The translations under genes and the position numbers were made by a program. From a virus (Duplodnaviria; Heunggongvirae; Uroviricota; Caudoviricetes), in IMG/VR virus record IMGVR_UViG_3300045744_000007, positions 1-64,000 of that record: a DNA stretch of 64,000 bases. One strand, 5' to 3'. Below, in pieces: positions 19,242 to 49,012 of the stretch; the first letter of the stretch is position 1, and every line of letters starts with the position of its first letter. The notes below the pieces were generated by a model. The model was not told the DNA's origin and did not search any database. It saw nothing but the letters and a program-made list of their open reading frames with translations.

Positions 19242-19292
19242 GGCAAGGCAGGGTTAGGAAGGGCGCGGCCAGGCTTGGCACGGCATGGAGAG
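19242..19292 (+). repeat. GG-periodic degenerate repeat tract (GGCAAGGC/AGGTTAGG-type units) ending GGCATGG
   Basis: GG dinucleotides every 4-5 nt on + strand. Confidence 0.5.
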
Positions 19293-19301
19293 GAGGAATC
19301 G

Positions 19302-19790
19302 ATGCTGGAGAGTGAGCTTCACTCGATCCGGACGGAGAAGGCGAAGCTGTTGGCGACGCGGCGTCGGGGCGTCCTCGTGAACACGAAAGGAGCGGGTGGT
19401 CTGGGTGTCGTTGCTCAGGCCGGTGTTCTGCTCGCCGGGGAGACCGGGAGAAGCGTGACGGTCTTCGGAGCCCCGGGGAGGCTCGAAGCCTGGGCGATGC
19501 ACTTCCCGACAGGAGCGGTCCGTCTCGTCTCAGCGGTGGCCCACGCCCGCCGACCTGAACTCCTGAGCCTGGACGATGTCCTTCTCGTGGACGGGGAAGG
19601 GCTCAGCACGAGCCGGGACTCTGCCTCTTGGCGGCACCTTGCTCCGGTGCTCCGGAACGTGGAGAACTGCCTTCTCTACCTCCTGAGTAGCTCCTGGCCG
19701 GGCTGCCTGCCGTTGGTCGAGCTGGTCACTCCGTTCGATCAGGTGGTGCTCATGGAGCACCAGCAGGCAACTCCGATCCTGAACTCGTAG
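19302..19790 (+). CDS. hypothetical protein
   Basis: ATG after GGAGAGGAGG. Confidence 0.55.
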   Translation: MLESELHSIRTEKAKLLATRRRGVLVNTKGAGGLGVVAQAGVLLAGETGRSVTVFGAPGRLEAWAMHFPTGAVRLVSAVAHARRPELLSLDDVLLVDGEGLSTSRDSASWRHLAPVLRNVENCLLYLLSSSWPGCLPLVELVTPFDQVVLMEHQQATPILNS

Positions 19791-19804
19791 ATACTTCTCG
19801 CCAG

Positions 19805-19909
19805 GTGAGGCAAGGCGAGGTATGCAAAGGCACGGTGTGGTCCGGCTCGGTGGGCTATGGCCTGCTCAGGCGTGGACAGGCATGGTCAGGCGTGGCGAGG
19901 TAGGGCATG
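19805..19909 (+). repeat. GG-periodic degenerate repeat tract ending GGGCATGG (start codon of next gene)
   Basis: units such as GGCAAGGC, GAGGTATG, CAGGCATGG. Confidence 0.5.
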
Positions 19910-20092
19910 GTTTCCAAGAAGCGACTGACCGCCCGAGAGGTGGTCCGTTGCGCTCGATGTGGCCGCCTGGCTGAACGACGATCTGCAATGCAATACGAGG
20001 GCCGTTGGTACGGCTCGAACTGTGTGCTAAAGGCACTGGCGACATCGAATGTGGACTTCGATAAGGAGTCCCAGGGAGGAGACAGCGAATGA
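19907..20092 (+). CDS. zinc-ribbon protein
   Basis: ATG at end of GG-repeat tract; CxxC...C motif. Confidence 0.5.
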   Translation: MVSKKRLTAREVVRCARCGRLAERRSAMQYEGRWYGSNCVLKALATSNVDFDKESQGGDSE

Positions 20093-20715
20093 CTGCGATT
20101 AGCAATGCTGCGAACACGGCTGAGGGCGCGATTTCCACGCAGATGCCTTGGGTGGTCGAGGTCGACATTCAGGGCACTTCCGATCTTCTGTTCCACCGGT
20201 ACTCCGTCGAGGCCGTGGCTGAGAAGGCCGCCGCCGCGAAGAACTCCGCCGCGAAGAAGACCGACGACACCGAGTCGTACCTGTACCGGGACGACGACGG
20301 CATCGTCTGCCTTCCTGGGGAGTACCTCCGGGGCGCGATCTGCTCCCCGGGTGGGGCCGCGAAGTACCGTCAGGACCCTCGGAGCCCGCGTAAGAGCGCG
20401 CTGGACCTCTACAAGGCCGGTGTGATCGCCCTGACGAACCTCGCCCCGATCGTGACGAGTGACGGGGAGCTGGCGAAGGACGCCGACTACATGGACCGGC
20501 GTCGGGTGGTCGTGCAGCGCAACGCTGTCTCCCGTGTCCGCCCGGCTTTCCACACGGGCTGGACGACGACGGTGCAGTTCCAGATCAACACCCCCGAGTA
20601 CATCTCGGACAAGGACTTCAAGGACGTGCTCGATCTCGCTGGTCGTCTCGTCGGGGTCGGGGACTTCCGTCCGACCTTCGGTCGGTTCACGGTCATGCGG
20701 TTCGAGATCATCTGA
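20089..20715 (+). CDS. hypothetical protein
   Basis: RBS GGGAGGAGACAGCGA; ATG overlapping stop. Confidence 0.6.
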   Translation: MTAISNAANTAEGAISTQMPWVVEVDIQGTSDLLFHRYSVEAVAEKAAAAKNSAAKKTDDTESYLYRDDDGIVCLPGEYLRGAICSPGGAAKYRQDPRSPRKSALDLYKAGVIALTNLAPIVTSDGELAKDADYMDRRRVVVQRNAVSRVRPAFHTGWTTTVQFQINTPEYISDKDFKDVLDLAGRLVGVGDFRPTFGRFTVMRFEII

Positions 20716-21070
20716 GCTTCGAGGCGCGGTAAGGCCGGGAACGGTGGGGCGTGCTTAGGCGGGGCACGGCTAGGAGCGGTGCGGTTCGGTTCGCCGGGGC
20801 GTGGCAAGGGCCGGGAACGGCGTGCCTAGGCGAGGTATGGCCGGGCGTGGACTGGAACGGCGAGGCAAGGAAGCAAGACGGCGGGGAGTGCGCTCACAGA
20901 TCGGCTCCCCGCCACGACCCGTGGTTAGGCCGGGCACGGCCAGGCTAGGTCTGGTGGGGTACGGCCTGGCGAGGAGCGGTGCGGTATGGGTTCGCCATGA
21001 CAAGGCGTGGTCAGGTTGGGCCGGGAAAGGCATGGCAGGGCAAGGTCTGGCAGGGCATGGATTTCAATAG
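20716..21070 (+). repeat. 355-bp GG-periodic degenerate repeat tract with embedded hairpin GGCGGGGAG...CTCCCCGCC, upstream of DNA polymerase gene
   Basis: dozens of NGGN units; ends GGCATGGATTTC. Confidence 0.55.
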
Positions 21071-21079
21071 GGAGACAGC

Positions 21080-23608
21080 GTGGCTGCTAAGAATTACGGT
21101 GCTATTCGAGACGAAGCTCAACTGGCCGCGCTGGTAGATAAGATCCTGGAATCCGGAGAGATCTTCGGGTTCGACATTGAAACTGGATACGATGGGCCCG
21201 ATCGGGATGGGGGATCTCTTCACCCCGATTGGCCGAAATGCAAAGTAGTCGGTATCTCGTTCACCAACTCCCTGGAGTGGGCGAGGTACGTCCCCCTGGC
21301 CCACGACTCAGGCCCCAACCTCGACCCGGTACGAGTGGCCGAGATCTTCTGGCCGTTGCTCAAGTCCGGTCGAGGCGTCGCGCACAACGCGAAGTTCGAG
21401 AGACGGCACCTGTCCCGGTTCTTCCGGGAGTTCCTGCCGGACAACGAAGAGGTCATCTCCGCAAACGGGTACTTCCCGGTCTTCTCCGACACGATGATCG
21501 AGGCGTACCTGGTCGCGGAATGGGAGAAGGTCGGTCTCAAGCCGATGACCAAGGCCCTCTTCGGGCACGACCAGGCTGAGTTGATCTCGCTCTTCCCCGG
21601 GATGAAGAAGGGGAAGAGCAAGGCTCTGAGGTTCAACGCGCTGGATCTGACCCCCGAGGTCATCAACTACGCCTGTGAGGACGCTCTCTGGGCGCTGGCG
21701 ATCCACCGGAAGCTCTACCCCCGGGTGAAGGACATGTTCCTTTACAAGGTGGAGATGGAAATCATGGAAGTCCTCTGCGAGATGGAGGACTTCGGGATCA
21801 AGTACGACTGGGCCGCGATGCGGGCCAAGCTGTCGGAGGCGGAGGCGTTCCTTCGGGCGATCGACGCCGAGATCCAGTCCGATCTCTCGGAGTGGGCAGG
21901 TAAGCCCGTCCTCATCAACTTGGGTTCTCCCAAGCAGGTGGGCGACATCCTGTATGGAACCCTGAACCTTCCGGTGGCGCAGTACACCGACTCAGGGGCT
22001 CCGAGTACCGGAGAAACGGCGCTCAAGAAGCTGGCTGACCAGTATCCGGTGGTCAAGCGCATCCTCGAATGGCGGGAAATCAAGACCCTCATCACGAGGT
22101 ACCTGGGGAAGTACGAGGACGACTACGCCTATGCCCCGGATGGGATGGTTCACCCGAACCACATGCAGGCGCTGGTCCCTTCGGGACGGTTCGCGGTCAA
22201 CGATTCTCCGTACCAGCAGACCCCGAAGGACTACTACTACGAGCTGCGTTCGGCTCAGATGATTACCGACGCTCACAAGGAAGCCCACCCCGACGTGGAT
22301 GGGAAGCCGTGCAAGTGCGAGGAGTGGGAGTCCAAGTACGAGCCCGGGTCGAGGTTCTTCCTGAACTTCCGGGACATGATCGTTGCTCCGAAGGGCTACT
22401 ACATCCTGGGCTACGACTACAGCCAGGTCGAGCTTCGGGTGATGGCCGGAGAGTCGGGGGAGCCGTCGCTTCTGGAGGCATTCAACTCCGGGGGAGATCC
22501 GCACACCACGACGGCATCCCTGATGCTGAACATCCCTCTCTCGAAGGTCTCCAAGGCCGAGCGCGCCATCGGGAAGACGATGAACTTCGCCCTCCTCTAT
22601 GGGATGGGAGTCAACTCGCTGGCTCAGCGGTTGGGCATCTCGAAGCAGGAGGGGCAGGAGCTGTACGACAAATACTTCTCCTCCTTCTCGTGCATCGATA
22701 CCTGGTCGAAGCGCTCGAAGGAGAGTGGCGTCGCCAAGGGCTACACCATCTCGAAGTTCGGTCGGAAGTTCACGATCTGGGACCTTCGGTCGGAGAGGGA
22801 CTGGCAGAGAGCCAAGGGCGAGCGGCTGTGCGTGAACGGCCCGATTCAGGGCGGCGCGGCTGACTACATGAAGATCTCTATGGTCCGGGCCCGGCGAGCC
22901 CTCAAGGCTGCTGGTCTGGCCGATCGGGTCCACCTGAACATGAACATCCACGACGCCCTGGAGTTCCTGGTCGAGGAGTCGGTGACGCCGGAGGAGGTCA
23001 TCCGAGTTCTGGCCCCGGCGGTCACCTTCGCGGTTCCCGGCTGGCCGAAGATCGAGGCCGACTGGCACATCGGGAGACGGTGGGGAACGCTGACCGACCT
23101 GATCGTGGACGAGCACGGCCACGTTCGGGCCAAGGGCCAGCACGCCAAGCCGAGCGCGCCGGAGATCTCGGAGGACGGTGAGCTGGAGGAGGTCGATCCG
23201 GACGCCGCTCTGGCCCGGGAGGCACTCCAGAAAGAGCGGTACGCCCCCGACAACAAGGAAGCCGTCATCGAGCACCAGGCGGCCGGTCTGGCGCTGAAAG
23301 AGCGGTACTACGACAAGGTCGAGGACGACGCTGCAGCAGCTCAGGCGCTCGCCAAGACGCTGATCGTGGAGCTGGGGGAGATGCCCCTGGAGAACGAGTT
23401 CGAGCGCTTCCGGGAGATGTCCTTCGCCAAGAACGGGTCCAACCGGCTCATCCTGCGCACGCCGGAGGGTGAGGCCGAGCTGAACTGGACGACGGGGCTG
23501 TCCCCCGACGACCGAGCTGAGATCAGCATGTTGTTCTCTGGGGCGAACGTGTATTGGTCTCCGGATTCAGTGGATGTGAAATCGATGCTCGGAGGGCTCG
23601 AGCTGTGA
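21080..23608 (+). CDS. polA: DNA polymerase I (family A) with 3'-5' exonuclease domain
   Basis: GTG after AGGGAGACAGC; motif A DYSQVELR, motif B/C region; N-terminal exo domain. Confidence 0.85.
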   Translation: MAAKNYGAIRDEAQLAALVDKILESGEIFGFDIETGYDGPDRDGGSLHPDWPKCKVVGISFTNSLEWARYVPLAHDSGPNLDPVRVAEIFWPLLKSGRGVAHNAKFERRHLSRFFREFLPDNEEVISANGYFPVFSDTMIEAYLVAEWEKVGLKPMTKALFGHDQAELISLFPGMKKGKSKALRFNALDLTPEVINYACEDALWALAIHRKLYPRVKDMFLYKVEMEIMEVLCEMEDFGIKYDWAAMRAKLSEAEAFLRAIDAEIQSDLSEWAGKPVLINLGSPKQVGDILYGTLNLPVAQYTDSGAPSTGETALKKLADQYPVVKRILEWREIKTLITRYLGKYEDDYAYAPDGMVHPNHMQALVPSGRFAVNDSPYQQTPKDYYYELRSAQMITDAHKEAHPDVDGKPCKCEEWESKYEPGSRFFLNFRDMIVAPKGYYILGYDYSQVELRVMAGESGEPSLLEAFNSGGDPHTTTASLMLNIPLSKVSKAERAIGKTMNFALLYGMGVNSLAQRLGISKQEGQELYDKYFSSFSCIDTWSKRSKESGVAKGYTISKFGRKFTIWDLRSERDWQRAKGERLCVNGPIQGGAADYMKISMVRARRALKAAGLADRVHLNMNIHDALEFLVEESVTPEEVIRVLAPAVTFAVPGWPKIEADWHIGRRWGTLTDLIVDEHGHVRAKGQHAKPSAPEISEDGELEEVDPDAALAREALQKERYAPDNKEAVIEHQAAGLALKERYYDKVEDDAAAAQALAKTLIVELGEMPLENEFERFREMSFAKNGSNRLILRTPEGEAELNWTTGLSPDDRAEISMLFSGANVYWSPDSVDVKSMLGGLEL

Positions 23609-40316: not shown

Positions 40317-40319
40317 CAT

Positions 40320-40943: not shown

Positions 40944-41016
40944 GCCGTCTTAGCCCAATGGCAGAGGCACAGTCTTGAGGAGGCTGACAGTGTGGGTTCG
41001 AATCCCACAGACGGTA
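40944..41016 (+). tRNA. class-I-shaped tRNA with Leu anticodon GAG (atypical: short variable arm)
   Basis: D-arm GCCCAATGGCAGAGGC; anticodon loop TTGAGGA; 5-nt variable loop; T-arm GTGGGTTCGAATCCCAC; A73. Confidence 0.55.
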
Positions 41017-41115
41017 CTCGCCGGTGTCAACGGGGTCAGACTGAGCGATCGTGAACCCCGAAGGCTGCTCATGATCCAGTCTTCCAGTGGGGAGGTAGAC
41101 CTGCATCGGCGTACT

Positions 41116-41187
41116 GCCTCCGTAGCTCAGAGGAAGAGCAGCGAGCTTTTAACTCGCGGGTCGGGATGTCGGAATTCCCCGGGGGCA
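41116..41187 (+). tRNA. tRNA-Lys (TTT) with non-canonical T-loop
   Basis: anticodon arm GCGAG-CTTTTAA-CTCGC; T-loop GTCGGAA lacks TTC. Confidence 0.5.
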
Positions 41188-41192
41188 CATGC

Positions 41193-41265
41193 GGCGCTCT
41201 AGCCCAATGGCAGAGGCGACGGTCTCAAAAGCCGTTCAGTGAGGGTTCGAATCCCTCGGGCGCTA
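41193..41265 (+). tRNA. class-I-shaped tRNA with Leu anticodon CAA (atypical)
   Basis: same D-arm GCCCAATGGCAGAGGC; anticodon loop CTCAAAA; 5-nt variable loop; A73. Confidence 0.55.
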
Positions 41266-41395
41266 CTGACTCTCTCCAGTCGCGAGGAGAGAGGTGGGAA
41301 CAGCTTCGAGCTGATTCGGTGGGACGGGGCAGGCAATCCCGTCCAGTAGACGGAGACGCGCCGCCGCCTTGCCTGAATAGACAGGCTCCAGTCGT

Positions 41396-41479
41396 GGAAG
41401 GTATCCGAACTGGCGAGGAGCCTCGTTGGAAGCGAGGTGCGGAGCAATCCGTTGTGGGTTCGAGCCCCACACCTTCCGC
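41396..41479 (+). tRNA. tRNA-Ser (GGA), class II
   Basis: anticodon arm CCTCG-TTGGAAG-CGAGG; long variable arm; T-arm GTGGGTTCGAGCCCCAC. Confidence 0.75.
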
Positions 41480-41581
41480 AACCGGTTGTCCGGGACTGCC
41501 GTGCGATGGTCAGGCTGAGATGACTGCCGATCGCGTGGAAGGGCTCTGACCGTCTCAGCGGTCAACACCCATCCCGGAATT

Positions 41582-41664
41582 GGAAGCGTGGCAGAGTGGT
41601 AATGCAGCGCCCTGCTAAGGCGTAACGGGTAACACCGTCGCAGGTTCGATCCCTGCCGCTTCCG
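41582..41664 (+). tRNA. tRNA-Ser (GCT), class II
   Basis: acceptor GGAAGCG/CGCTTCC; anticodon loop CTGCTAA; long variable arm; T-loop TTCGATC. Confidence 0.8.
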
Positions 41665-41764
41665 CGCGCTGGAGATCCGGCTTTCCTAAGCTGACGCCAG
41701 CCGGACCCTGGCTACAGGGAAGAGTCAGAGAGAACGAGGAAAATACAAAACCTGTAGTCGCTAG

Positions 41765-41839
41765 CCGACTTAGCCCAATCTGGTAGAGGCGTCCGGTTCA
41801 GGGCCGGAATGTTGAGAGTTCGAATCTCTCAGTCGGTAC
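41765..41839 (+). tRNA. class-I-shaped tRNA with Leu anticodon CAG (atypical)
   Basis: D-arm GCCCAATCTGGTAGAGGC; anticodon arm TCCGG-TTCAGGG-CCGGA; 5-nt variable loop; A73. Confidence 0.55.
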
Positions 41840-41897
41840 GTGAGGCTCAAGAAGCGGGCCCACACCCTCAGATGTCATGAACACAGAAGGGTGACAA

Positions 41898-42320
41898 TTG
41901 AAGCTTCGTATGATTGCTGCGCTCTCCGCAGCGCTGATCGGTATCGGGGTCGCCTCCGCTCCGGCTCAGGCCACCGTCACGAACTACCGATCCACCGGGA
42001 CCTGCACGCTGGCCGGGACGGTTTGGAACCTCACGGATCTGTACCACCGTGACTCCGCGACCGGGAACGTCCAGTCCTTCGGCTTCGCCTTCTCCCGGAA
42101 GTCCGGGACGGGGAAGATCTCGGAGTTGCAGATCACCTGGTCCGGCTCCTCGCCCTCGACCCTGTGGTACGGGATCTGGCCGACCGGGATCACGTCCATC
42201 GGTGACACCTCGTTCACCGCGACTCCGTCGTGGCAGGCCAGCCAGTCGGTCTACTACAACATCACCTCCCCGAGTTCCTCGGGGAACCAGACGACCACCT
42301 GTGCGGTGAACGTCACCTGA
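41898..42320 (+). CDS. secreted protein (signal peptide), paralog A
   Basis: TTG after AGAAGGGTGACAA; signal peptide ...ASAPAQA; YRSTGTC..VGTVWN..LYHRDS core shared with next gene. Confidence 0.65.
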   Translation: MKLRMIAALSAALIGIGVASAPAQATVTNYRSTGTCTLAGTVWNLTDLYHRDSATGNVQSFGFAFSRKSGTGKISELQITWSGSSPSTLWYGIWPTGITSIGDTSFTATPSWQASQSVYYNITSPSSSGNQTTTCAVNVT

Positions 42321-42760
42321 TGCGATTCTCGAAGCTCCGTCTGGGCATCGCCGCGTTTCTGGCCGCGCTCGTCGCTCTGCCCGTCCTCACTGCCGACGCT
42401 GAGGCGGCAGTGGTGGACTACCGATCCACCGGGACCTGCTCGGTCGTGGGGACCGTCTGGAACATGACGAGTCTCTACCACCGTGACTCGACCACCGGGA
42501 GCGTGAAGTCCTACGGCTTCAACGTCTCCCGGAAGTCCGGCACCGGGACGCTCCGGTCGGTCTACGTCGACTGGTACAACCATGGGATCCTCGGGGAGTA
42601 CCTCTATCCGGAGACCGGTTCGTCCAACACGAACACTGGCGACCAGATCTATGGCTGGGCCACCCCGGACTGGGAGGCGTCTCAGCAGCTCATCTTCAAG
42701 ATCTCGTCCCCGAGTTCGGGCGGCACCCGGACGTCGACCTGTCTGATGACGATCACCTGA
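42320..42760 (+). CDS. secreted protein (signal peptide), paralog B
   Basis: ATG overlapping stop; signal peptide ...TADAEAA; same conserved core. Confidence 0.65.
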   Translation: MRFSKLRLGIAAFLAALVALPVLTADAEAAVVDYRSTGTCSVVGTVWNMTSLYHRDSTTGSVKSYGFNVSRKSGTGTLRSVYVDWYNHGILGEYLYPETGSSNTNTGDQIYGWATPDWEASQQLIFKISSPSSGGTRTSTCLMTIT

Positions 42761-42850
42761 CGTCTCTGAATGCGCGGCGCTTCTCTTGCCCTCCTGTTTA
42801 GAGAAGCCCGGCTACTGGGGTGGGCCCGCCCAGGCGCAACACGGGCCATC

Positions 42851-42924
42851 CGGAATGTGGCGCAGCTTGGTAGCGCACTCGGTTCGGGACCGAGAGGCCG
42901 CAGGTTCAAATCCTGCCATTCCGA
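42851..42924 (+). tRNA. tRNA-Pro (CGG)
   Basis: acceptor CGGAATG/CATTCCG; anticodon loop TTCGGGA; T-arm GCAGGTTCAAATCCTGC. Confidence 0.8.
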
Positions 42925-42974
42925 CTGTTCTCTGGGAGGTCCGCAGCTTCCCCGTAGTGGCTCCCAGAGAACTT

Positions 42975-43046
42975 GCCTGGTTAGCTCAGCGGAAGAGCGC
43001 CTGTATGACATACAGGAGGTCCGGGGTTCGACACCCTGACTAGGCA
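42975..43046 (+). tRNA. tRNA-Val (GAC)
   Basis: anticodon arm CCTGT-ATGACAT-ACAGG; T-loop TTCGACA. Confidence 0.75.
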
Positions 43047-43048
43047 CT

Positions 43049-43122
43049 GTGTCTGAAGCTGAAGTGGTCGAAGCGCCGGGATGTGGCCCCGGAGGTAGGG
43101 AGTTCGAGTCTCCTCAGACACC
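43049..43122 (+). tRNA. tRNA-His (GTG)
   Basis: acceptor GTGTCTG/CAGACAC; anticodon arm CCGGG-ATGTGGC-CCCGG; T-loop TTCGAGT. Confidence 0.75.
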
Positions 43123-43126
43123 CCAC

Positions 43127-43155
43127 TTGACTAGTTGACACGAGTGAACTAGACT
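43127..43155 (+). promoter_or_regulatory. promoter TTGACT-agttgacacgagtgaac-TAGACT driving leaderless gene
   Basis: family motif; ATG 7 nt downstream. Confidence 0.6.
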
Positions 43156-43162
43156 CTCCTGC

Positions 43163-43423
43163 ATGAGAGACACAGTCCACTACAAGGTCATCTTCGAGGT
43201 GCGCGAGAAGTACAACATGACTCAGGATCTGGCCCAGGTGGGCTGGGCGAAGTTCGGCAACTTCAACCGGCTCTCGGCCAGAACGTACGAGGTTTCCGGA
43301 ACGAGATGTCTCGACCCGAACCTCTGGCAGTTTCCTGAGGTGCTCATGCACTACGTGCAGTCCGTCTTCAGCGAGATCAAGATCGACATCCTCGAGTTCT
43401 CGATGAAGGTCGAGATCGACTAA
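43163..43423 (+). CDS. hypothetical protein (leaderless)
   Basis: ATG 7 nt downstream of -10 TAGACT. Confidence 0.55.
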   Translation: MRDTVHYKVIFEVREKYNMTQDLAQVGWAKFGNFNRLSARTYEVSGTRCLDPNLWQFPEVLMHYVQSVFSEIKIDILEFSMKVEID

Positions 43424-43701
43424 TGGACACCAAGAAGATCCGATACAGGGCCGTCTTCAAGACCACTCGGCCGCTGGAGCAGGACGAGGCCAAGGCGCTC
43501 TGGGAGCGCTTCGGGGACTTCCATCGAGTCAGCGCCAACAAGTACGCAGTCTCCTCGGAGAGCCTCGCTCCTAGTTGGGCCGTGTTGTCGGTCCTGGCCC
43601 ACGACGTTTGGGTGCGGGTTCTCGATGTCATCGGGCACGTCGCTTTCAAGAACGTGTCGATCCTGGTGGAAGAGGTCGAGGAGGATGACGTTTCAGTCTG
43701 A
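43423..43701 (+). CDS. hypothetical protein (paralog of 43163..43423)
   Basis: ATG overlapping TAA; shared Y.VIF...R..W..FG.F.R.S pattern. Confidence 0.55.
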   Translation: MDTKKIRYRAVFKTTRPLEQDEAKALWERFGDFHRVSANKYAVSSESLAPSWAVLSVLAHDVWVRVLDVIGHVAFKNVSILVEEVEEDDVSV

Positions 43702-43885
43702 GGACGTGTTCACCTTCTGCTTCACGATCGGTGTGGCGCTGTCCCGGCCGCCCCAGGTGGACGAGTACCGGAAGGTCATCCTCACGGCTCCGAACGAGCT
43801 GGAAGCCTGGCAGACCGCTTGCCTGATGGCATCAGCAGGAGCGGTCATGCCGGTGTCCTCGGTGCTGGAGTACGTTGAATTCTGA
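43685..43885 (+). CDS. small protein, start uncertain
   Basis: ATG in frame of track ORF 43625..43885. Confidence 0.35.
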   Translation: MTFQSEDVFTFCFTIGVALSRPPQVDEYRKVILTAPNELEAWQTACLMASAGAVMPVSSVLEYVEF

Positions 43886-44000
43886 GAGAAAGCTGACGGG
43901 TGTGACGAGCCTGGCAGAGCTGTGGACGAGGAGCACGGGACGTCGCCTAACTCTTCTCGTCGCGACAGCACAAGCAGTTGCAGGATGTTGCGGTGCCTGC

Positions 44001-44042
44001 AATGGCTATGGACGAGGGGCTACGCCCCCGGGCCCTCGTCCA
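44001..44042 (+). repeat. 14-bp perfect inverted repeat GCTATGGACGAGGG ... CCCTCGTCCATAGC
   Basis: strong hairpin upstream of tRNA-Tyr. Confidence 0.5.
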
Positions 44043-44047
44043 TAGCC

Positions 44048-44130
44048 GCTCGCGTGGAAACAACCTGGTGGTTGAGGCGGTCTGTAAAACCGTTGCTACG
44101 GCACGGCAGGTTCGATCCCTGCTCCACGCA
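44048..44130 (+). tRNA. tRNA-Tyr (GTA), class II
   Basis: acceptor GCGTGGA/TCCACGC; anticodon loop CTGTAAA; 12-nt variable arm; T-loop TTCGATC. Confidence 0.7.
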
Positions 44131-44303
44131 CGTCAAGGGCACTAGCTCTTGGAAGTGGGACTGGTAGGCGTCCGGAAGGTCGCTGAGCCAGGTTCCTGCG
44201 GGATGCGACCTCCTGTCGGTGGAGGCTTTCGGATGCCAGTACGAGGCTGAGTGGTTGCACCCGCTCAGTAGCGCCGGTCGAGACGGCAATCTCGACCGGA
44301 CAC

Positions 44304-44375
44304 CGCACTGTGGGAGAACGGCGATCCAGCAGACTGCAAATCTGTTCCATGCCGGTTCGAGTCCGGCCAGTGCGT
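44304..44375 (+). tRNA. tRNA-Cys (GCA)
   Basis: acceptor CGCACTG/CAGTGCG; anticodon loop CTGCAAA; T-arm GCCGGTTCGAGTCCGGC. Confidence 0.75.
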
Positions 44376-44388
44376 CTCAGAGCACTAG

Positions 44389-44417
44389 TTGACAAGAAGC
44401 AACCAGGCTGCTAGAGT
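44389..44417 (+). promoter_or_regulatory. promoter TTGACA-N17-TAGAGT driving leaderless gene
   Basis: family motif; ATG 7 nt downstream. Confidence 0.6.
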
Positions 44418-44424
44418 TCTGGTC

Positions 44425-44736
44425 ATGGGAGACAACGAGAACAGCCAGAGCGGCGGGGCCCTCCAGAACAACGTGGTCTACGCCTTTGCAGTCGGTGACA
44501 AGCTGATCGGGTCCTTCGTCCGGACCGGTGAGCCGATGAACCGGACCTATCACGTCAGCAACGGGGACGGGGAGGAGATCGGGCACGTCACGCGGTACCG
44601 GTACGTTGAGGCCATCCTCATGGTCCTGCTCCGGGACGCGATGATCGACACGGTGGTGGAAGAGGTCGAGGCCCCCAAGCTCATCGCGGATCTGGAGAAG
44701 TTCCTCGCCAACCCCATGGAGGGCTCCGATGGGTGA
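44425..44736 (+). CDS. hypothetical protein (leaderless)
   Basis: ATG 7 nt downstream of -10 TAGAGT. Confidence 0.5.
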   Translation: MGDNENSQSGGALQNNVVYAFAVGDKLIGSFVRTGEPMNRTYHVSNGDGEEIGHVTRYRYVEAILMVLLRDAMIDTVVEEVEAPKLIADLEKFLANPMEGSDG

Positions 44737-45250
44737 GGTGATCCGGAAGGACTTCTACAACGATCCCGACGCTCCGGTGGTGACCGACAAGAAGATCGGC
44801 TACGCCGCGAACGTGTACGTCCGGCATGGTCACTACGTCCTGGTCCAGCAACGGTCGGACAACGGCCAGTGGGCCCTCCCGGGGGGAATGCAGGACCCGG
44901 GCGAGTCCATCACCGAGACGGCGGTCAGGGAGTGTTTCGAGGAGACGGGGATCGAGGTCGAGATCAAGAGGCTGATCGGGGTCTACTCGGACCCGAAGCA
45001 CATCGTCGCCTACTACCGGGACGGTGAACTGCTCGGGGCGAGCCAGGAGGCTTCCATGCTCTTCTACGCGTACCCGATCGGGTCGCTGGAGACGAGGGCC
45101 AGTTCCGAGTCTTCGATCGTGGGCTGGTGTCCTGAGGAGCTGGTTCTCGACCTGGACATGGCTCCTTCGATGAAGAGGAGAATCGAGGACGCACTGAGTC
45201 CCCGCTGGCACAACGTTCCGATTCTTTTCCCGCCGGTAGGTGCATCGTGA
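44729..45250 (+). CDS. NUDIX hydrolase
   Basis: Nudix box GGMQDPGESITETAVRECFEETGIEVE. Confidence 0.75.
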   Translation: MGEVIRKDFYNDPDAPVVTDKKIGYAANVYVRHGHYVLVQQRSDNGQWALPGGMQDPGESITETAVRECFEETGIEVEIKRLIGVYSDPKHIVAYYRDGELLGASQEASMLFYAYPIGSLETRASSESSIVGWCPEELVLDLDMAPSMKRRIEDALSPRWHNVPILFPPVGAS

Positions 45251-45438
45251 AGACTTGGGTTTCGTTGGTGCTGATCCTCGTCGGAGCTACGGTCTTCGTG
45301 TTCGGTGGGGCGTACTTGGGTGTGAAGTGGCAGACGAAGCAGGACGAGCAGACTTGTTCTGCCCTTCACGGAGAGCGCATCAAGTACGTGAAGTCTCGCG
45401 CGCTCTGCCTGGATTCGGAAGGCCGAATTCTCAACTGA
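45247..45438 (+). CDS. small membrane protein
   Basis: GTG overlapping stop; TM helix; followed by hairpin. Confidence 0.5.
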   Translation: MKTWVSLVLILVGATVFVFGGAYLGVKWQTKQDEQTCSALHGERIKYVKSRALCLDSEGRILN

Positions 45439-45447
45439 AAGACCGGG

Positions 45448-45466
45448 CCGAAAGGCCCGTAACTCC
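45448..45466 (+). terminator. small hairpin GGGCCGAAAGGCCC after gene
   Basis: 5-bp GC stem, GAAA loop. Confidence 0.4.
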
Positions 45467-45536
45467 GCTTAGCTCAGTTGGAGAGAGCGCCACGCTACGA
45501 ACGTGGAGGCCGGGGGTTCGAGTCCCTCAGCGGAGG
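45462..45536 (+). tRNA. tRNA-Arg (ACG)
   Basis: acceptor CTCCGCT/AGCGGAG; anticodon arm CCACG-CTACGAA-CGTGG; T-loop TTCGAGT. Confidence 0.8.
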
Positions 45537-45537
45537 C

Positions 45538-45606
45538 TCAAGGCAAGGTTGGCTTAGGCGCGGCCAGGCAAGGTCTGGCTGGGTGCGGTTAGGTAGGGCA
45601 TGGGTT
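45538..45606 (+). repeat. GG-periodic repeat tract ending GGCATGGG
   Basis: same unit family. Confidence 0.5.
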
Positions 45607-45681
45607 CCACTGGAAAATAGAGAAAGGAGCGCGTCGTGCTATAGGCGCGAACCGTTCGCGCTGAGAGGAGATCTCAGCGAA

Positions 45682-46017
45682 ATGAGCCGAACTGACAAGA
45701 CCAGCCCTAGTTTCGTCAAGGCGTTGCGGCGCGAGGGCGCGACGATTAGCCACGACCACCGGGACGGGGTCTGCAACCTGGGAGTTCACTCCTGGTGGGG
45801 ACCGCGTCGGGATGCCGACTGGGGCTATCACTGCGACATCTACGTCGATGCGTACTCCTACCCGGGAAGCAAGGAGTGGCCGCGCCCCCGGTCGGTGAAG
45901 TGGGAGACGAAGAAGTGGCACCGTGCCGCCCGTAGATCGGCGAACGTCGAGCTGGCGAGGGGCGAGGAGCCTGAGCCGCTCAGGACCCGGAGGCGTGTGC
46001 TCTGGGACACCTACTGA
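45682..46017 (+). CDS. Cys/His-rich protein (paralog of 35204..35488)
   Basis: ATG; begins MSRTDKT. Confidence 0.55.
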   Translation: MSRTDKTSPSFVKALRREGATISHDHRDGVCNLGVHSWWGPRRDADWGYHCDIYVDAYSYPGSKEWPRPRSVKWETKKWHRAARRSANVELARGEEPEPLRTRRRVLWDTY

Positions 46018-46026
46018 AAGTAAGTA

Positions 46027-46099
46027 CGGCCTGTAGCTCAGAGGAAGAGCTGCGCTTTCCTAAAGCGCGAGTCGGAGGTTCGAATCCTCTCAGGCCGAC
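46027..46099 (+). tRNA. tRNA-Arg (CCT)
   Basis: acceptor CGGCCTG/CAGGCCG; anticodon loop TTCCTAA; T-loop TTCGAAT. Confidence 0.8.
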
Positions 46100-46186
46100 G
46101 CAAGGCAAGGTCGGGCTCGGTGAGGTCCGGCTAGGCGTGGCGCGCTACGGTGGGGCGCGGTATGGAATGGCGAGGCATGGGTTTCA
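46100..46186 (+). repeat. GG-periodic repeat tract ending GGCATGGG
   Basis: same unit family, between tRNAs. Confidence 0.5.
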
Positions 46187-46259
46187 CGGCCACTGGTCCA
46201 ATGGATAGGGCACCTGGCTTCTACCCAGGATGGTGGGGGTTCGAATCCCTCGTGGCCGA
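46187..46259 (+). tRNA. tRNA-Arg (TCT)
   Basis: acceptor CGGCCAC/GTGGCCG; anticodon arm CCTGG-CTTCTAC-CCAGG; T-loop TTCGAAT. Confidence 0.8.
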
Positions 46260-46261
46260 CG

Positions 46262-46362
46262 TGAGTGGTATGGCGGGGCTAGGTTAGGCACGGCCTGGTC
46301 GGGAGTGGCCCGGTATGGCTAGGTTAGGTCTGGCGTGGAGGGGCGCGGTATGGAACACCCCG
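46262..46362 (+). repeat. GG-periodic repeat tract ending GGTATGGAACAC
   Basis: same unit family. Confidence 0.5.
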
Positions 46363-46372
46363 GAGGTTGACG

Positions 46373-46600
46373 TTGGACTGCACGGTCGAGAAGCGTCGTC
46401 GTCCGGTCGGGGGAAACTGGGCTTACGCTCAGCCCTGGCGAGTTGTCTGCCCTGAGTGTGCTCAGCACATCAAGGGGAAGGATTTCCATAGCCCGCCACC
46501 AGGCTTCAGTTTTCACACCGTCTTCCACACCCGGAAGCAAGCAAAGGACGCCCTCCACGCGCACTACGTGGAGGTTCACGGCGGGCCCCGGAAGGCGTAA
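46373..46600 (+). CDS. Cys/His-containing small protein
   Basis: TTG 9 nt after GGAGG; CPECAQH motif. Confidence 0.45.
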   Translation: MDCTVEKRRRPVGGNWAYAQPWRVVCPECAQHIKGKDFHSPPPGFSFHTVFHTRKQAKDALHAHYVEVHGGPRKA

Positions 46601-46721
46601 GCCTGGGAGATCGGACCTGGCTCGGGCATAGGCTGCGCACCGCTCACGAATGCGATCGGTCGGCTGACGTGCGCTGGCGAGCTAAGGCCGGGGAGGTTCG
46701 ACTCCTTCCCCCGCCACACAG

Positions 46722-46750
46722 TTGACAAGAGTGAACTAGCGAGCTAGTAT
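46722..46750 (+). promoter_or_regulatory. promoter TTGACA-agagtgaactagcgagc-TAGTAT driving leaderless gene
   Basis: family motif; ATG 7 nt downstream. Confidence 0.6.
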
Positions 46751-46757
46751 TTCACTC

Positions 46758-46979
46758 ATGGAAACCACGCCGAACCTGCTCCAGCAGGCCAAGGGACAGG
46801 CCGCGAAGGCTGTCTCCAAGCAAGTGTGTGTCGAGGGCGAGGACGTCTACTTCCTGGAGGACACCAAGGCCAGGAAGCCCGGACACATCTACTCCCGGGC
46901 CGGTCTTCGGGAGTACGGAACCAGTGGTTGTTGTGAGTACCACTTCGATCTGTTCTTCGGGGAACCCGAGGAAGAGTAA
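46758..46979 (+). CDS. hypothetical protein (leaderless)
   Basis: ATG 7 nt downstream of -10 TAGTAT. Confidence 0.5.
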   Translation: METTPNLLQQAKGQAAKAVSKQVCVEGEDVYFLEDTKARKPGHIYSRAGLREYGTSGCCEYHFDLFFGEPEEE

Positions 46980-46981
46980 GG

Positions 46982-47040
46982 CGGGGCTTGGCTAGGTCGG
47001 GTAGGCCAGGGTTGGGCATTGGAACGGCATGGCATGGAAG
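46982..47040 (+). repeat. GG-periodic repeat tract ending GGCATGGAAG
   Basis: same unit family. Confidence 0.5.
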
Positions 47041-47044
47041 TCAT

Positions 47045-47119
47045 CTCCTCGTAGCGCAGTACGGATAGCGCGTCCCCCTCCGGAGGGGAAGGTCGCAGGT
47101 TCAAATCCTGCCGAGGAGG
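47045..47119 (+). tRNA. tRNA-Arg (CCG)
   Basis: acceptor CTCCTCG/CGAGGAG; anticodon loop CTCCGGA; T-arm GCAGGTTCAAATCCTGC. Confidence 0.8.
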
Positions 47120-47121
47120 CT

Positions 47122-47200
47122 TGCGGTGAGGCACGCCTAGGCAAGCTCAGGTAAGGCATGGCCGGGAACGGCTAGGCAAGGTTGGGCGAGGCATGGAATT
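47122..47200 (+). repeat. GG-periodic repeat tract ending GGCATGGAATTC upstream of rsr
   Basis: same unit family. Confidence 0.5.
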
Positions 47201-47270
47201 CGGTGCACTGTTCTAGATAATTACACCGCCCGGTGTAAAAGCATTGTGGATATCGGGAGGAGACACAGAA

Positions 47271-48896
47271 ATGGCAAAGATCAACGTCAAGAAGACCACG
47301 GCCCCGCTGAGAGGTCCGATCCGTTCCCTGAGCACGTTCCCGGACACGGCGACCTTCGAGGGTGCGAACGCCTATAGGCGTGACGCGAAGTCCGACCTGT
47401 TCCTGCTCGGAGCCTCGCTGTTCTCGGGTGAGGGCTCGTTCTACGAGACGGCAGAGGTTCGGGACGAGCGGTTCGTCACGCTCGTGAGAGAGGTCGCATC
47501 CCAGGACCCGGTGTGGATCGGGAAGTTCCTGGAGTGGCTGCGGTCGGTGGGCAACATCCGGACCGCCTCCATCATCGGGGCGATCGAGGCTGGTCGTGTG
47601 ATCAGCAAGATGTTCGCCAACGGTCAGGCGACCACCGAGGTCTCGGCGCGTTCCGTGCTGGCTTCGGTGTTGCAGAGGGCCGATGAGCCAGGTGAGGCCG
47701 TCGCCTACTGGAACGCCCACTACAGCGACGAGAAGCGGCCGAAGTGGTTCCGGCGTGCTCTGGGCGACGGTGCGGCGAAGCTCTACAGTGAGTACAGCGT
47801 CCTCAAGTACGACACCGACGCGTACAGCGTCCGGTTCGCGGACGTGCTGGCCGTGGCTGAGCCGGTGGGCGAGAAGGACCGGCCGCTCTACCTGTGGATC
47901 ATGAACCGGGGCAAGAAGGCCAACCGGCACCCGGAGCACGGACTGTTCTCCAACCCTCGGGTGGGGGACTTCTCCGAGGCTCTGCCGATGGCCGTGTTCG
48001 CTGAGCGGTTGAACAAGATGCCGAAGGACGAGGCTCGGGCGCTGTTGCTCAGTGGTCGGGAGTCGGAAGTTGCCAAGAAGGGCGGCCTCACCTGGGAGCA
48101 GTTGTCGGGCTTCGGGGCGATGGACAAGGCTGCCTGGGAGGCCGTGATTCCGAACATGGGATTCATGGGCCTGTTGAGGAACCTGCGGAACTTCGACCGG
48201 GCCGGGATCTCGAAGGCGAGCCAGGACTACGTGATCAACTACCTGACCGACCCGGCCAAGGTGGCGAAGTCGCGTCAGCTCCCGTTCCGGTTCCTGTCGG
48301 CGTACCTCGCTGCCGGGGACTCGGACACCTGGCGGGCTCCGTTGGGCGAGGCGCTGGACCTGGCGACGTCGAACATCCCGGACGAGCTGGGGGGTTCGAC
48401 CTTCATCGTCCTGGACACCAGTGCCTCGATGTTGGATCCGTTGTCCGAGAAGGGCTCGGTGTCGATGCACATGGCGGGGGCGGTCTTCGCCGCTGCGCTG
48501 GCGAAGAAGGCGAAGGGAGCGGTCCGGTTCGTGGAGTTCGCCACCACGGCCAAGGAGATCAAGCTGTCTCCGACCGCTTCGGTGCTCAAGCTGGCGTCTG
48601 ACTCCGTCGCTCGGAGTGGGCATGTGGGGCACGGAACCGACCTGGCCGGGGCGCTGCGGCTCTACCAGGGGGAGTCGAGAGTGATCATCTTCAGCGACTT
48701 TCAGACCAGCAGCTACGTCTACACCTCGAAGATCACGGCTCCGACGTATGGGTTCAATCTGGCAGGCTACGAGCCGACGATCGTGCCTGGTGGGAACTCG
48801 AACTGGGTCGAGCTGGGTGGCTTGTCCGACAGCACCTTCAAGATCATCCCGATCTTGGAGGAGCGCAAGCAGGGCAAGTGGCCGTGGGAGGCGTAG
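47271..48896 (+). CDS. rsr: Ro60/Rsr-like RNA-binding protein (TROVE-like helical domain + vWA domain)
   Basis: ATG after GGGAGGAGACACAG; ~540 aa, N-terminal alpha-helical region and C-terminal vWA with MIDAS DTSAS (FIVLDTSASM); architecture and size match bacterial Rsr. Confidence 0.55.
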   Translation: MAKINVKKTTAPLRGPIRSLSTFPDTATFEGANAYRRDAKSDLFLLGASLFSGEGSFYETAEVRDERFVTLVREVASQDPVWIGKFLEWLRSVGNIRTASIIGAIEAGRVISKMFANGQATTEVSARSVLASVLQRADEPGEAVAYWNAHYSDEKRPKWFRRALGDGAAKLYSEYSVLKYDTDAYSVRFADVLAVAEPVGEKDRPLYLWIMNRGKKANRHPEHGLFSNPRVGDFSEALPMAVFAERLNKMPKDEARALLLSGRESEVAKKGGLTWEQLSGFGAMDKAAWEAVIPNMGFMGLLRNLRNFDRAGISKASQDYVINYLTDPAKVAKSRQLPFRFLSAYLAAGDSDTWRAPLGEALDLATSNIPDELGGSTFIVLDTSASMLDPLSEKGSVSMHMAGAVFAAALAKKAKGAVRFVEFATTAKEIKLSPTASVLKLASDSVARSGHVGHGTDLAGALRLYQGESRVIIFSDFQTSSYVYTSKITAPTYGFNLAGYEPTIVPGGNSNWVELGGLSDSTFKIIPILEERKQGKWPWEA

Positions 48897-48899
48897 GTA

Positions 48900-49012
48900 C
48901 TCACTGAAAGGCACGGCCTGCTGTGGTGTGGCCTGCTGAGGTACGCCTCGGCGTGGTTCGGTATGCCCAGGCTCGGTCCGGTCTGGCTCGCTCGGGTAAG
49001 GCATGGGATAGA
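48900..49012 (+). repeat. GG-periodic repeat tract ending GGCATGGGATAGACC downstream of rsr
   Basis: same unit family. Confidence 0.5.

What the first reader, a model, noticed from the sequence alone, without database searches (positions are those of the whole stretch)
19242..49012. GG-periodic degenerate repeat tracts at ten intergenic sites, each terminating in GGCATGG next to a gene start
Ten tracts of 50-355 bp (19242, 19805, 20716, 45538, 46100, 46262, 46982, 47122, 48900 and the 20.7-21.07 kb giant) consist of units such as GGCAAGGC, AGGTATGG, TAGGCGCGG and CAGGCATGG. GG recurs every 4-5 nt on the coding strand. Tracts end with (G)GGCATGG(A/G/T)TT, sometimes using that ATG as the start codon (19907). 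They sit upstream of the DNA polymerase, sbcC-N, rsr and several small genes, and between Arg tRNAs. The many closely spaced GG runs could form two-quartet G-quadruplexes in DNA or mRNA, or could be a tandem array of binding sites for a phage regulator.
Basis: seen in the sequence. Interest (0 to 1): 0.6.

Follow-up and report, generated by a model that had tools for sequence, protein, structure and literature searches.

The report
Phage VIPR guide-RNA arrays (GGYNN repeats)
The GG-periodic tracts are arrays of five-base GGYNN repeats that encode guide RNAs for a small CRISPR-like phage protein (a VIPR system, first described in 2026 preprints), and in this phage some guides are unusually wedged between arginine tRNA genes.

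The parts
19237..19293 (+). vrRNA candidate A1. It has 11-12 GGYNN units, ends in GGCATGG at 19282-19288, and runs into the SD of ORF19302.
   Evidence: A syntenic array is present in relative L138 with the same terminal GGCAT unit but different NN bases.
19302..19790 (+). ORF19302 (162 aa), a lineage-restricted gene conserved in the locus. It is a possible accessory (vap-like) gene of unknown fold.
   Evidence: No Pfam, PADLOC or PHROG hit. Apart from the window's own protein there is one database homolog, P0122 at 62% identity; a C-terminal fragment is also seen upstream of the array in L137 by inspection. It is syntenic in L138.
19804..19915 (+). vrRNA candidate A2. It has 21-22 units, 3 of them degenerate GCNNN, and ends in GGGCATGG + TTTCC. 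It may be two guides.
   Evidence: A syntenic array is present in L138.
19907..20092 (+). ORF19907 (61 aa, with a CxxC motif plus a third Cys). Its ATG is the ATG of the terminal GGCATGG, and its stop overlaps the vipr start (ATGA). It is a candidate accessory gene.
   Evidence: A homolog in L137 is 58% identical (E 3e-25) and also overlaps vipr. Pfam gives only weak hits to DUF6011 and L32p.
20089..20715 (+). vipr: a 208-aa stand-alone RAMP (Cas7-like) protein. It is predicted to polymerise on the GGYNN repeats, one protomer per unit.
20723..20870 (+). vrRNA candidates A3 and A4. These are two in-register runs, 20723-20814 (19 units) and 20809-20870 (13 units), offset by 1 nt, directly downstream of the vipr stop.
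   Evidence: The position matches the downstream arrays of SUSP1 and L137.
20880..20913 (+). Hairpin GGCGGGGAG...CTCCCCGCC that separates the two halves of the 'giant' tract. It has no T-run. It may be a processing or boundary element.
   Evidence: Read directly from the sequence. Function not tested.
20923..21070 (+). vrRNA candidates A5 (20923-20989 plus tail GGGTTCGCC) and A6 (21004-21060 plus tail ATTTCAATA). They end 10 nt before the PolA start at 21080.
45463..45537 (+). tRNA-Arg(ACG), with no encoded CCA. Its 3' end lies 4 nt before array B1.
45542..45613 (+). vrRNA candidate B1. It has 12-13 units and ends in GGGCATGG + GTTCCACTGG.
46027..46099 (+). tRNA-Arg(CCT), with no encoded CCA. 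Array B2 follows directly.
46104..46186 (+). vrRNA candidate B2. It has 16 units and a tail GGCATGG-GTTTCAC that ends exactly at the 5' end of the next tRNA (46187).
46187..46260 (+). tRNA-Arg(TCT), flanked on both sides by arrays B2 and B3.
46267..46353 (+). vrRNA candidate B3. It has 17-18 units, ends in GGTATGG, and is followed by an SD-like GGAGG and ORF46367.
46980..47037 (+). vrRNA candidate B4. It has about 11 units with register slips, ends in GGCATGGCATGG, and lies 7 nt before tRNA-Arg(CCG).
47045..47120 (+). tRNA-Arg(CCG), flanked by arrays B4 and B5.
47125..47203 (+). vrRNA candidate B5. It has 14-15 units and ends in GGCATGG + AATTCGG, upstream of the Ro60-like gene.
48910..49006 (+). 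vrRNA candidate B6. It has 20 unit positions, 5 of them degenerate, and ends in GGCATGG. It lies in the 3' region after the Ro60-like stop codon (48896).
49013..49046 (+). Intrinsic terminator (15-bp stem followed by TTTTGT) that closes the distal guide cluster.

Best explanation
The tracts are genes for VIPR guide RNAs (vrRNAs). Each is a run of pentanucleotide units G-G-Y-N-N transcribed from the + strand.

How it most likely works:
- The phage's own Vipr protein (ORF 20089-20715), a minimal Cas7-like RAMP, polymerises along each RNA with one protomer per unit. It flips out and holds the invariant GGY.
- This leaves the two variable bases of every unit exposed.
- The concatenated NN dinucleotides then base-pair with double-stranded DNA that carries the same dinucleotides separated by one skipped base, (xNN)n. 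The skipped base is typically the codon wobble position.
- Binding silences transcription of the target, most likely a competing phage, prophage or satellite in the same host.

This phage carries about 12-13 guides in two clusters. Six or seven surround vipr at 19.2-21.1 kb. Six lie 25 kb away at 45.5-49.0 kb.

In the distal cluster, four guides start 1-6 nt after the discriminator base of a CCA-less tRNA-Arg gene, and two end 6-7 nt before the next tRNA. The most likely maturation route there is excision by the host tRNA-processing enzymes: RNase Z-type cleavage at tRNA 3' ends and RNase P at tRNA 5' ends.

Shown here: the repeat anatomy, strand bias and statistics; the RAMP fold; homology to SUSP1 Vipr and conservation of GGY-reading residues; genome-wide co-occurrence of arrays and Vipr genes; conservation of the frame but not the NN bases in syntenic arrays.

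Taken from the two preprints: filament formation, the 1-nt-skip code and silencing.

Inferred only: that these particular RNAs are expressed and loaded, the tRNA-enzyme processing, and the identity of the targets.
For: - Unit and register. There are 160 GG-bearing units with Y at position 3 in 87% and unbiased N4 and N5. Twelve runs lie on the + strand and none on the - strand, against 0.01 expected.
- Literature. VIPR vrRNAs are '9-16 YNNGG tandem repeats' with conserved GGY and hypervariable NN. They flank a ~20 kDa RAMP gene in phages (Discussion).
- Homology. tblastn finds phiSUSP1 at the published locus. That locus shows 1 upstream and 3 downstream arrays as published. Pairwise E is 1.3e-12.
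- Residues. SUSP1 H17, K33, R138, D177, W178 and R179 map to window H36, K51, R151, D192, F193 and R194. All are invariant in a 25-member family alignment. P. fulva Vipr has Tyr at the W178 position, so an aromatic swap is within the family's range.
- Independent association. A DNA-pattern-only scan returned more than 120 viral contigs at 39-70% GC, each with arrays essentially on one strand. Of 120, 54 encode a homolog by tblastn and 78 by HMM, beside the arrays.
- Hypervariability. L138 has flanking genes 68-70% identical in DNA, and L137 has a Vipr 74% identical. Both carry arrays at the same positions. In 3'-anchored register against L138, G1 matches 21/23 and G2 15/23, but N4 only 9/23 and N5 6/23.
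- No self-target of 80% or better in the window, as the paper reports for its own systems.
- Structure. The repeat regions are mostly no more structured than shuffles.
- tRNA arrangement. Distances between tRNAs and arrays are 5-7 nt (29 nt for the detector's truncated run of B4; 7 nt by inspection).
Against: - No natural target was found. Eight exact 10-11-unit core scans of IMG/VR, JGI metagenomes and GTDB genomes returned nothing.
- An 8-unit core scan gave 3 hits that extended at chance level.
- Mismatch-tolerant scans of 1.2 Mb of fetched loci showed no advantage for the 1-nt skip.
- These scans required exact cores, whereas the paper used an 80% NN-match threshold, so the negative result is weak.
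- No vap1 homolog is present.
- The 3' 'tail' is only a short motif (GGCATGG-N-TTYC in 5 guides, GGCATGG alone in others) with no pseudoknot.
- Several tracts exceed 16 units or contain degenerate GCNNN units, so individual guide boundaries are uncertain and some guides may be decaying.
- There are no expression data.
- Several arrays sit in 5' UTRs and overlap an SD or start codon. A cis role is therefore not excluded.
Confidence: 0.88

Rival explanations
1. Cis-acting RNA operators. Vipr, or another factor, coats the GGYNN tracts within the mRNAs' 5' UTRs and controls translation or stability of the adjacent genes (ORF19302, ORF19907/vipr, PolA, the Ro60-like gene). This would replace or add to trans guide function.
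For: Several tracts end within 0-25 nt of an SD or start codon. At 19907 the terminal GGCATGG supplies the start ATG. The arrays are co-oriented with all flanking genes. No separate promoter was found in 18.5-21.3 kb.
Against: In SUSP1, arrays in the same position are processed to ~100-nt RNAs that co-purify with Vipr and act in trans. The NN bases differ between syntenic arrays of relatives, which an operator would not require. Two arrays are bounded by tRNAs and one by a terminator, with no downstream ORF.
Confidence: 0.07
2. Two-quartet G-quadruplex-forming elements in DNA or RNA that modulate transcription, translation or replication.
For: (GGNNN)n formally fits a G2-L3 quadruplex motif. 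The G-richness is confined to the non-template/coding strand.
Against: - A G4 needs only four G-runs and has no requirement for a pyrimidine at position 3, yet Y is 87% conserved.
- The register is kept for up to 143 units in relatives.
- Arrays co-occur with a RAMP gene in 78 of 120 loci.
- The published structure shows the guanines flipped out and held by protein in the syn conformation, not stacked in tetrads.
- G4 stability was not computed here.
Confidence: 0.02
3. Double-stranded DNA iteron or operator arrays bound by a conventional phage transcription factor (HTH, RHH or sigma-like), or a replication-origin/R-loop element upstream of the polymerase gene.
For: The largest tract lies directly upstream of PolA. 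Short tandem DNA repeats upstream of genes are typical of RHH and omega-type repressors (own knowledge).
Against: - The strand asymmetry is absolute, 12 runs against 0.
- A 5-bp period is too short for a folded DNA-binding domain on one face of the helix.
- Twelve dispersed sites, including between tRNAs and after a stop codon, do not fit an origin.
- No DNA-binding domain was detected in the neighbouring ORFs.
- The associated conserved protein is an RNA-binding RAMP.
Confidence: 0.02

Closest known systems
VIPR systems (Vipr + vrRNA), type II exemplars Escherichia phage SUSP1 and the Pseudomonas fulva prophage (bioRxiv 10.64898/2026.04.26.720920 and 10.64898/2026.04.26.720927)
   Same: - The repeat unit (GGY/NN, period 5) is the same.
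- The arrays lie in the long intergenic regions on both sides of a ~20-23 kDa stand-alone RAMP gene.
- The context is a phage genome.
- The G-loop GVGD(W/F)RPxFGRF and all GGY-contacting residues are the same.
- There is no CRISPR array or cas genes, and no self-targeting.
   Different: - Vipr is alignable to SUSP1 Vipr by BLAST only over the C-terminal ~76 aa (38% identity there).
- There is no vap1 homolog. Instead a 61-aa Cys-containing ORF is translationally coupled upstream of vipr, and a 162-aa lineage-restricted ORF is present.
- The tail is a short GGCATGG-N-TTYC motif rather than a ~40-nt pseudoknot.
- Some tracts have 17-22 units.
- A second guide cluster lies 25 kb from vipr, interleaved with tRNA genes.
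- The genome is a high-GC (62%) virus resembling phages of Actinobacteria (closest GenBank relative: Microbacterium phage Magritte).
- The VIPR type (I-VII) could not be assigned without the paper's phylogeny.
Hammerhead-ribozyme-interspersed vrRNA arrays (VIPR types I and V, fig. S19 of the discovery preprint), and engineered polycistronic tRNA-gRNA arrays (own knowledge: Xie et al. 2015)
   Same: Guides alternate with a self-contained RNA-processing module, so that a single transcript can be cut into individual guides.
   Different: Here the spacer modules are four functional-looking tRNA-Arg genes (Rfam 61.7-64.1 bits). Cleavage would be carried out by host RNase P and RNase Z rather than by a ribozyme. 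This natural arrangement is not mentioned in the text of either VIPR preprint. It was not seen in 120 other array-bearing loci.
Class 1 CRISPR backbone filaments (Cas7/Csm3/Cmr4 on crRNA)
   Same: The RAMP fold, G-loop and thumb are shared. One protomer binds per fixed RNA increment, and a thumb periodically interrupts guide-target pairing.
   Different: - The period is 5 nt with three bases sequestered and two pairing, against 6 nt with one base flipped.
- The guide is itself a degenerate tandem repeat rather than a spacer between repeats.
- There is no adaptation module, no Cas5, Cas6 or large subunit, and no PAM.
TRAP (trp RNA-binding attenuation protein) binding sites: 9-11 (G/U)AG triplets with 2-3-nt spacers (own knowledge)
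   Same: A conserved triplet plus a two-base spacer is repeated with a period of about 5 nt on RNA, with one protein subunit per repeat.
   Different: The protein fold is unrelated (a beta-sandwich ring against an RRM/RAMP helical filament). TRAP spacers carry no information, whereas here the spacers are the information. This was my working hypothesis before the literature search and is rejected as a membership claim.

Membership tests
VIPR system | Sequence homology to an experimentally characterised Vipr | tested here: met
   tblastn hits phiSUSP1 at 28501-28722, E 1e-5. This is the 195-aa CDS flanked by arrays. Pairwise E is 1.3e-12.
VIPR system | Residues that read G1, G2 and Y3 and the target backbone (SUSP1 H17, R138, D177, W178, R179, K33) | tested here: met
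   They map to H36, R151, D192, F193, R194 and K51. All are invariant in 25 family members, with the aromatic retained at position 193.
VIPR system | Tandem YNNGG (GGY/NN) repeats, at least 4 and typically 9-16 units, in the intergenic regions flanking vipr and on the same strand | tested here: met
   There are 12 runs of 9-19 hit units, all on the + strand. Six or seven lie within 900 nt of vipr.
VIPR system | GGY conserved while NN is hypervariable between related systems | tested here: met
   For syntenic arrays in L138, G1 matches 21/23, G2 15/23, N4 9/23 and N5 6/23. L137 arrays occupy the same positions with no nucleotide similarity. The sample is small (two relatives).
VIPR system | An invariant, structured 3' tail after the last repeat | tested here: inconclusive
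   Only a short motif is present. GGCATGG closes 8 tracts, and GGYATGG-N(0-1)-TTYYS closes 5. Related ends occur in L130 and DSL-LC04. No conserved hairpin or pseudoknot was found. The P. fulva system also lacks the pseudoknot.
VIPR system | An adjacent accessory gene (vap1-6) | tested here: inconclusive
   There is no vap1 homolog. The candidates are ORF19907, conserved and overlapping vipr in L137 (E 3e-25), and ORF19302, conserved in L138. Neither has a recognisable DNA-binding or nuclease domain. The sequences of vap2-6 were not available to compare.
VIPR system | Natural DNA targets that match the NN bases under the 1-nt-skip rule (>= 80% NN match), with none in the system's own genome | tested here: inconclusive
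   No self-target was found (best 0.57-0.68). No external target was found in eight exact-core scans, one 8-unit scan or 1.2 Mb of loci. The tools cannot run the paper's mismatch-tolerant nhmmer search on whole collections.
VIPR system | vrRNAs expressed as discrete ~100-nt RNAs that co-purify with Vipr | not testable with these tools
   This needs sRNA-seq and pull-down experiments.
G-quadruplex element | Four or more G-runs sufficient for the element, with no constraint on loop bases and no dedicated protein partner | tested here: not met
   Position 3 is constrained to Y in 87% of units. Arrays reach 10-143 units. A RAMP gene partner is present in 78 of 120 loci.
TRAP-type triplet-repeat RNA operator | A TRAP-fold ring protein encoded in the genome or host, with spacer bases free of information | tested here: not met
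   The associated protein has a RAMP fold. The NN spacers are the specificity determinants in the homologous system.

The most novel reading that the evidence does not exclude
This phage has a previously undescribed vrRNA array architecture: guides interleaved with four tRNA-Arg genes in a satellite cluster 25 kb from vipr. In this reading the guides are matured by the host's universal tRNA-processing enzymes (RNase Z-type cleavage after the discriminator base, RNase P at the next tRNA's 5' end). It would be a natural counterpart of the engineered polycistronic tRNA-gRNA design and of the hammerhead-interspersed VIPR arrays. Guide production would then be coupled to expression of the phage's tRNA operon, and the system would not need a dedicated processing nuclease.
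Probability: 0.5. Interest if true: 0.6.

Novelty: new member of a known kind. Interest (0 to 1): 0.5.

Why it matters
- VIPR was described only in 2026 and is proposed to be an ancestor-like relative of CRISPR RAMP effectors, with a non-contiguous guide code.
- This window extends VIPR to a large, tRNA-rich, high-GC uncultivated phage whose closest GenBank relative is Microbacterium phage Magritte (36.5% PolA identity).
- One phage can carry a dozen or more guides split between the vipr locus and a remote tRNA operon.
- The window gives a concrete, testable case for tRNA-enzyme-dependent guide maturation.
- The system is invisible to Pfam, PADLOC and Rfam, and TRF reports only one partial match. 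Gene callers place spurious ORFs on the arrays.
- A trivial pattern, (GGYNN)7GGCATGG, recovers well over 100 viral contigs, and 65% of them carry a Vipr gene in the fetched stretch. Such a pattern scan is therefore a practical annotation route.

Tried and rejected
- **TRAP-like or CsrA-like sponge or operator.** This was my first hypothesis, from the period-5 triplet-plus-spacer pattern. I dropped it once the associated protein proved to be a RAMP and the literature explained the unit.
- **R-loop, switch-region-like or origin element upstream of PolA.** Rejected because the 12 sites are dispersed, some between tRNAs.
- **Close relatives in GenBank phages.** Megablast found none. The best PolA relative, Microbacterium phage Magritte, is syntenic but has no arrays in the 42 kb examined.
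- **IMG/VR PolA relatives.** Only 22% identity and no arrays.
- **Ro60-anchored metagenome scan.** No relatives found.
- **Target prediction.** Nine collection scans and two local scans were all negative or at chance level.
- **vap identification.** No vap1 homolog. ORF19302 has one database homolog. I did not fold the candidates.
- **Rfam.** Only tRNAs at gathering threshold and at E <= 1 around the distal cluster.
- **Tandem Repeats Finder.** It detects only one fragment of one array.
- **Supplements of the discovery paper.** Not held, so type assignment and a check of its locus figures for tRNAs were not possible.

Full report
**1. The observation**

All ten tracts are present at the stated coordinates.

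Splitting the sequence at each GG run shows a strict 5-nt register:
- Spacings of 4+6 or 3+7 are GGG or GGGG runs.
- Spacings of 10 are a single degenerate unit.

Among 160 GG-bearing units:
- Position 3 is C or T in 139 (87%).
- Positions 4 and 5 show no strong preference.
- Degenerate units are nearly always GCNNN.

The unit is therefore G-G-Y-N-N, not an 8-9-mer.

The arrays are absolutely strand-specific. Twelve runs with at least 9 in-register GG units lie on the + strand and none on the - strand. In 200 first-order Markov simulations the mean was 0.01 such runs, and no run exceeded 9 units.

The 'giant' tract is four runs split by a hairpin at 20880-20913.

GGCATGG closes eight tracts. 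An extended GGYATGG-N(0-1)-TTYYS closes five.

Not every tract abuts a gene start. Two run into tRNA 5' ends. One follows the Ro60-like stop codon and ends at a strong intrinsic terminator at 49013-49046.

**2. What it is**

The window has no close relative among GenBank phages. Its PolA is 36.5% identical to that of Microbacterium phage Magritte. Magritte is syntenic (PolA, tRNA cluster, Ro-like gene) but has no arrays.

I scanned IMG/VR with a pattern that uses no protein information, (GGYNN)7GGCATGG. Each carried several arrays, essentially on one strand. In AT-rich contigs the arrays are unmistakable; L025, for example, has 15 perfect GGCNN units directly before an SD and ATG.

[quoted passage not shown] According to that paper:
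- A ~20 kDa phage-encoded RAMP, Vipr, acts with vrRNAs of '9-16 YNNGG tandem repeats'.
- GGY is conserved and NN is hypervariable.
- The repeats are followed by a 3' tail.
- The NN dinucleotides recognise dsDNA with one skipped base per unit.
- Natural targets are competing phages and satellites.

A companion cryo-EM preprint adds the structural mechanism:
- One Vipr protomer binds per repeat, forming a right-handed filament.
- The GGY bases are flipped out and held by defined residues.

**3. Membership tests**

ORF 20089-20715 (208 aa) lies between the tracts.

- *Family size and annotation.* It belongs to a family of about 6,400 proteins of 200-235 aa with no Pfam domain. PADLOC finds nothing, and PHROGs assigns phrog_4652, 'unknown function'.
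- *Homology to the model system.* tblastn against GenBank phages finds phiSUSP1, the paper's model. The hit is the 195-aa CDS with one array upstream and three downstream, exactly as published. Pairwise E is 1.3e-12.
- *GGY-reading residues.* In a family alignment, the residues that read G1, G2 and Y3 and the target backbone in SUSP1 are H17, K33, R138, D177, W178 and R179. They map to H36, K51, R151, D192, F193 and R194 in the window. All are invariant in the family. P. fulva Vipr has Tyr at the W178 position, so an aromatic substitution is normal.
- *Co-occurrence.* Of the 120 pattern-derived loci, 54 encode a homolog by tblastn and 78 by HMM, next to the arrays. The window has exactly one copy.
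- *Hypervariability.* Two true relatives keep the arrays in place.
  - L138 has flanking genes 68-70% identical at the DNA level. Its arrays sit in the same two intergenic positions and have the same terminal GGCAT unit. In register, G1 matches 21/23 and G2 15/23, but N4 only 9/23 and N5 6/23.
  - L137 has a Vipr 74% identical. It conserves the layout 'ORF19302 C-terminus, array, small ORF overlapping vipr, array', with no nucleotide similarity in the arrays.
- *Structure of the repeat RNA.* The repeat regions are mostly not more structured than shuffled controls (z from +0.3 to -1.7, with one at -3.4).

**4. What did not fit or could not be shown**

- There is no vap1 homolog. The candidate accessory genes are ORF19907 and ORF19302.
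  - ORF19907 is 61 aa with a CxxC motif plus a third Cys. Its start is the ATG of the terminal GGCATGG, and its stop overlaps the vipr start. It is conserved in L137 with E 3e-25.
  - ORF19302 is 162 aa and has one database homolog.
  - Neither has a recognisable domain.
- The 3' tail is short and unstructured, unlike the SUSP1 pseudoknot. The P. fulva system also lacks a pseudoknot. Related GGGTTYC ends occur in L130 and phage DSL-LC04.
- No natural target was recovered.
  - There is no self-target in the window, which agrees with the paper's control.
  - Eight exact 10-11-unit scans of IMG/VR, JGI metagenomes and GTDB genomes were empty.
  - An 8-unit core gave three hits that extended at chance level.
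  - A mismatch-tolerant scan of 1.2 Mb of fetched loci gave no advantage to the 1-nt skip.
  - These scans required exact cores, so the negative result is weak.

**5. What is different here**

Six guides form a second cluster 25 kb from vipr.

Four of them begin 1-6 nt after the discriminator base of the four tRNA-Arg genes (anticodons ACG, CCT, TCT and CCG). None of these genes encodes CCA. Two guides end 6-7 nt before the next tRNA.

The other 29 tRNAs in the window have no arrays. None of the 120 other array-bearing loci shows a genuine tRNA-array junction. The word tRNA does not occur in the text of either VIPR preprint. The papers describe plain, staggered, hammerhead-interspersed and single-guide architectures.

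By analogy with the ribozyme-interspersed arrays, I infer that RNase Z-type and RNase P cleavage release these guides. This is an inference from anatomy only.

**6. Verdict**

The feature is real and highly non-random. It is best explained as the guide-RNA genes of a VIPR system whose Vipr gene lies among them (confidence about 0.88).

The 'binding-site array for a phage protein' idea is right in spirit, but the sites are on RNA and the partner is a RAMP.

The kind of system is already described, in 2026 preprints. This is a new member in a novel high-GC, tRNA-rich phage. It has a probably new tRNA-interleaved, dispersed array architecture and unassigned accessory genes.

Noticed in passing
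window 46580-46717: A tRNA-like element lies about 550 nt upstream of the TROVE/Ro60+VWA gene (47271-48896). It has a perfect T-arm (GGGGAGG-TTCGACT-CCTTCCCC), a 3' GCCACA, and a ~44-nt insertion. ARAGORN calls it only at a relaxed threshold, and Rfam has no hit. It may be a YrlA-like Y RNA partner of the Ro60-like protein, or a tRNA pseudogene.
   Followed up: partly
L130 2052-2888; L136 1909-2049; L132 (phage DSL-LC04 OR003939) 3986-4603: Public gene calls place spurious ORFs on vrRNA arrays: a '278-aa hypothetical protein' in L130 and a 46-aa ORF in the window's own giant tract. The DSL-LC04 Vipr homolog (53% identical) is annotated 'helix-turn-helix transcriptional regulator'.
   Followed up: partly
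L015 6301-7012; L061 2181-2482; L087 3221-3507; L033 1489-1755: Contigs whose Vipr is 52-55% identical to the window's carry very long uninterrupted in-register arrays: 143, 61, 58 and 54 units. This is far beyond the 9-16 units of a single vrRNA. They may be the 'staggered/overlapping' architecture of the paper, or something else.
   Followed up: no
window 49051-50013: The ORF immediately after the last array and its terminator has an N-terminal ABC/OLD-type ATPase domain. Its best PADLOC matches are HEC-01A, LmuB, AriA, Old and GajA (E 1e-12 to 1e-7). Whether it is linked to the VIPR guides or is an unrelated defence or repair gene is unknown.
   Followed up: no
window 46722-46750: This is the only strong sigma-70-like promoter in the distal cluster (TTGACA-17-TAGTAT). 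It lies just upstream of ORF46758, and so upstream of guides B4 and B5 and tRNA-Arg(CCG).
   Followed up: no
window 36651-47120: There are 33 tRNA genes covering most amino acids, all on the + strand, as in Microbacterium phage Magritte. Only the four Arg isoacceptors, grouped at the 3' end of the tRNA region, are associated with arrays.
   Followed up: partly
window 20880-20913: A GC-rich hairpin (GGCGGGGAG/CTCCCCGCC, 16-nt loop) without a T-run sits in the middle of the giant tract between guides A4 and A5. It may be a processing or boundary signal.
   Followed up: no
L136 (Logan SRR23978790 contig, 20.7 kb): A second public assembly carries a 100% identical copy of window 19089-21715. The same phage was therefore sampled independently of the 97-kb JGI contig.
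   Followed up: partly
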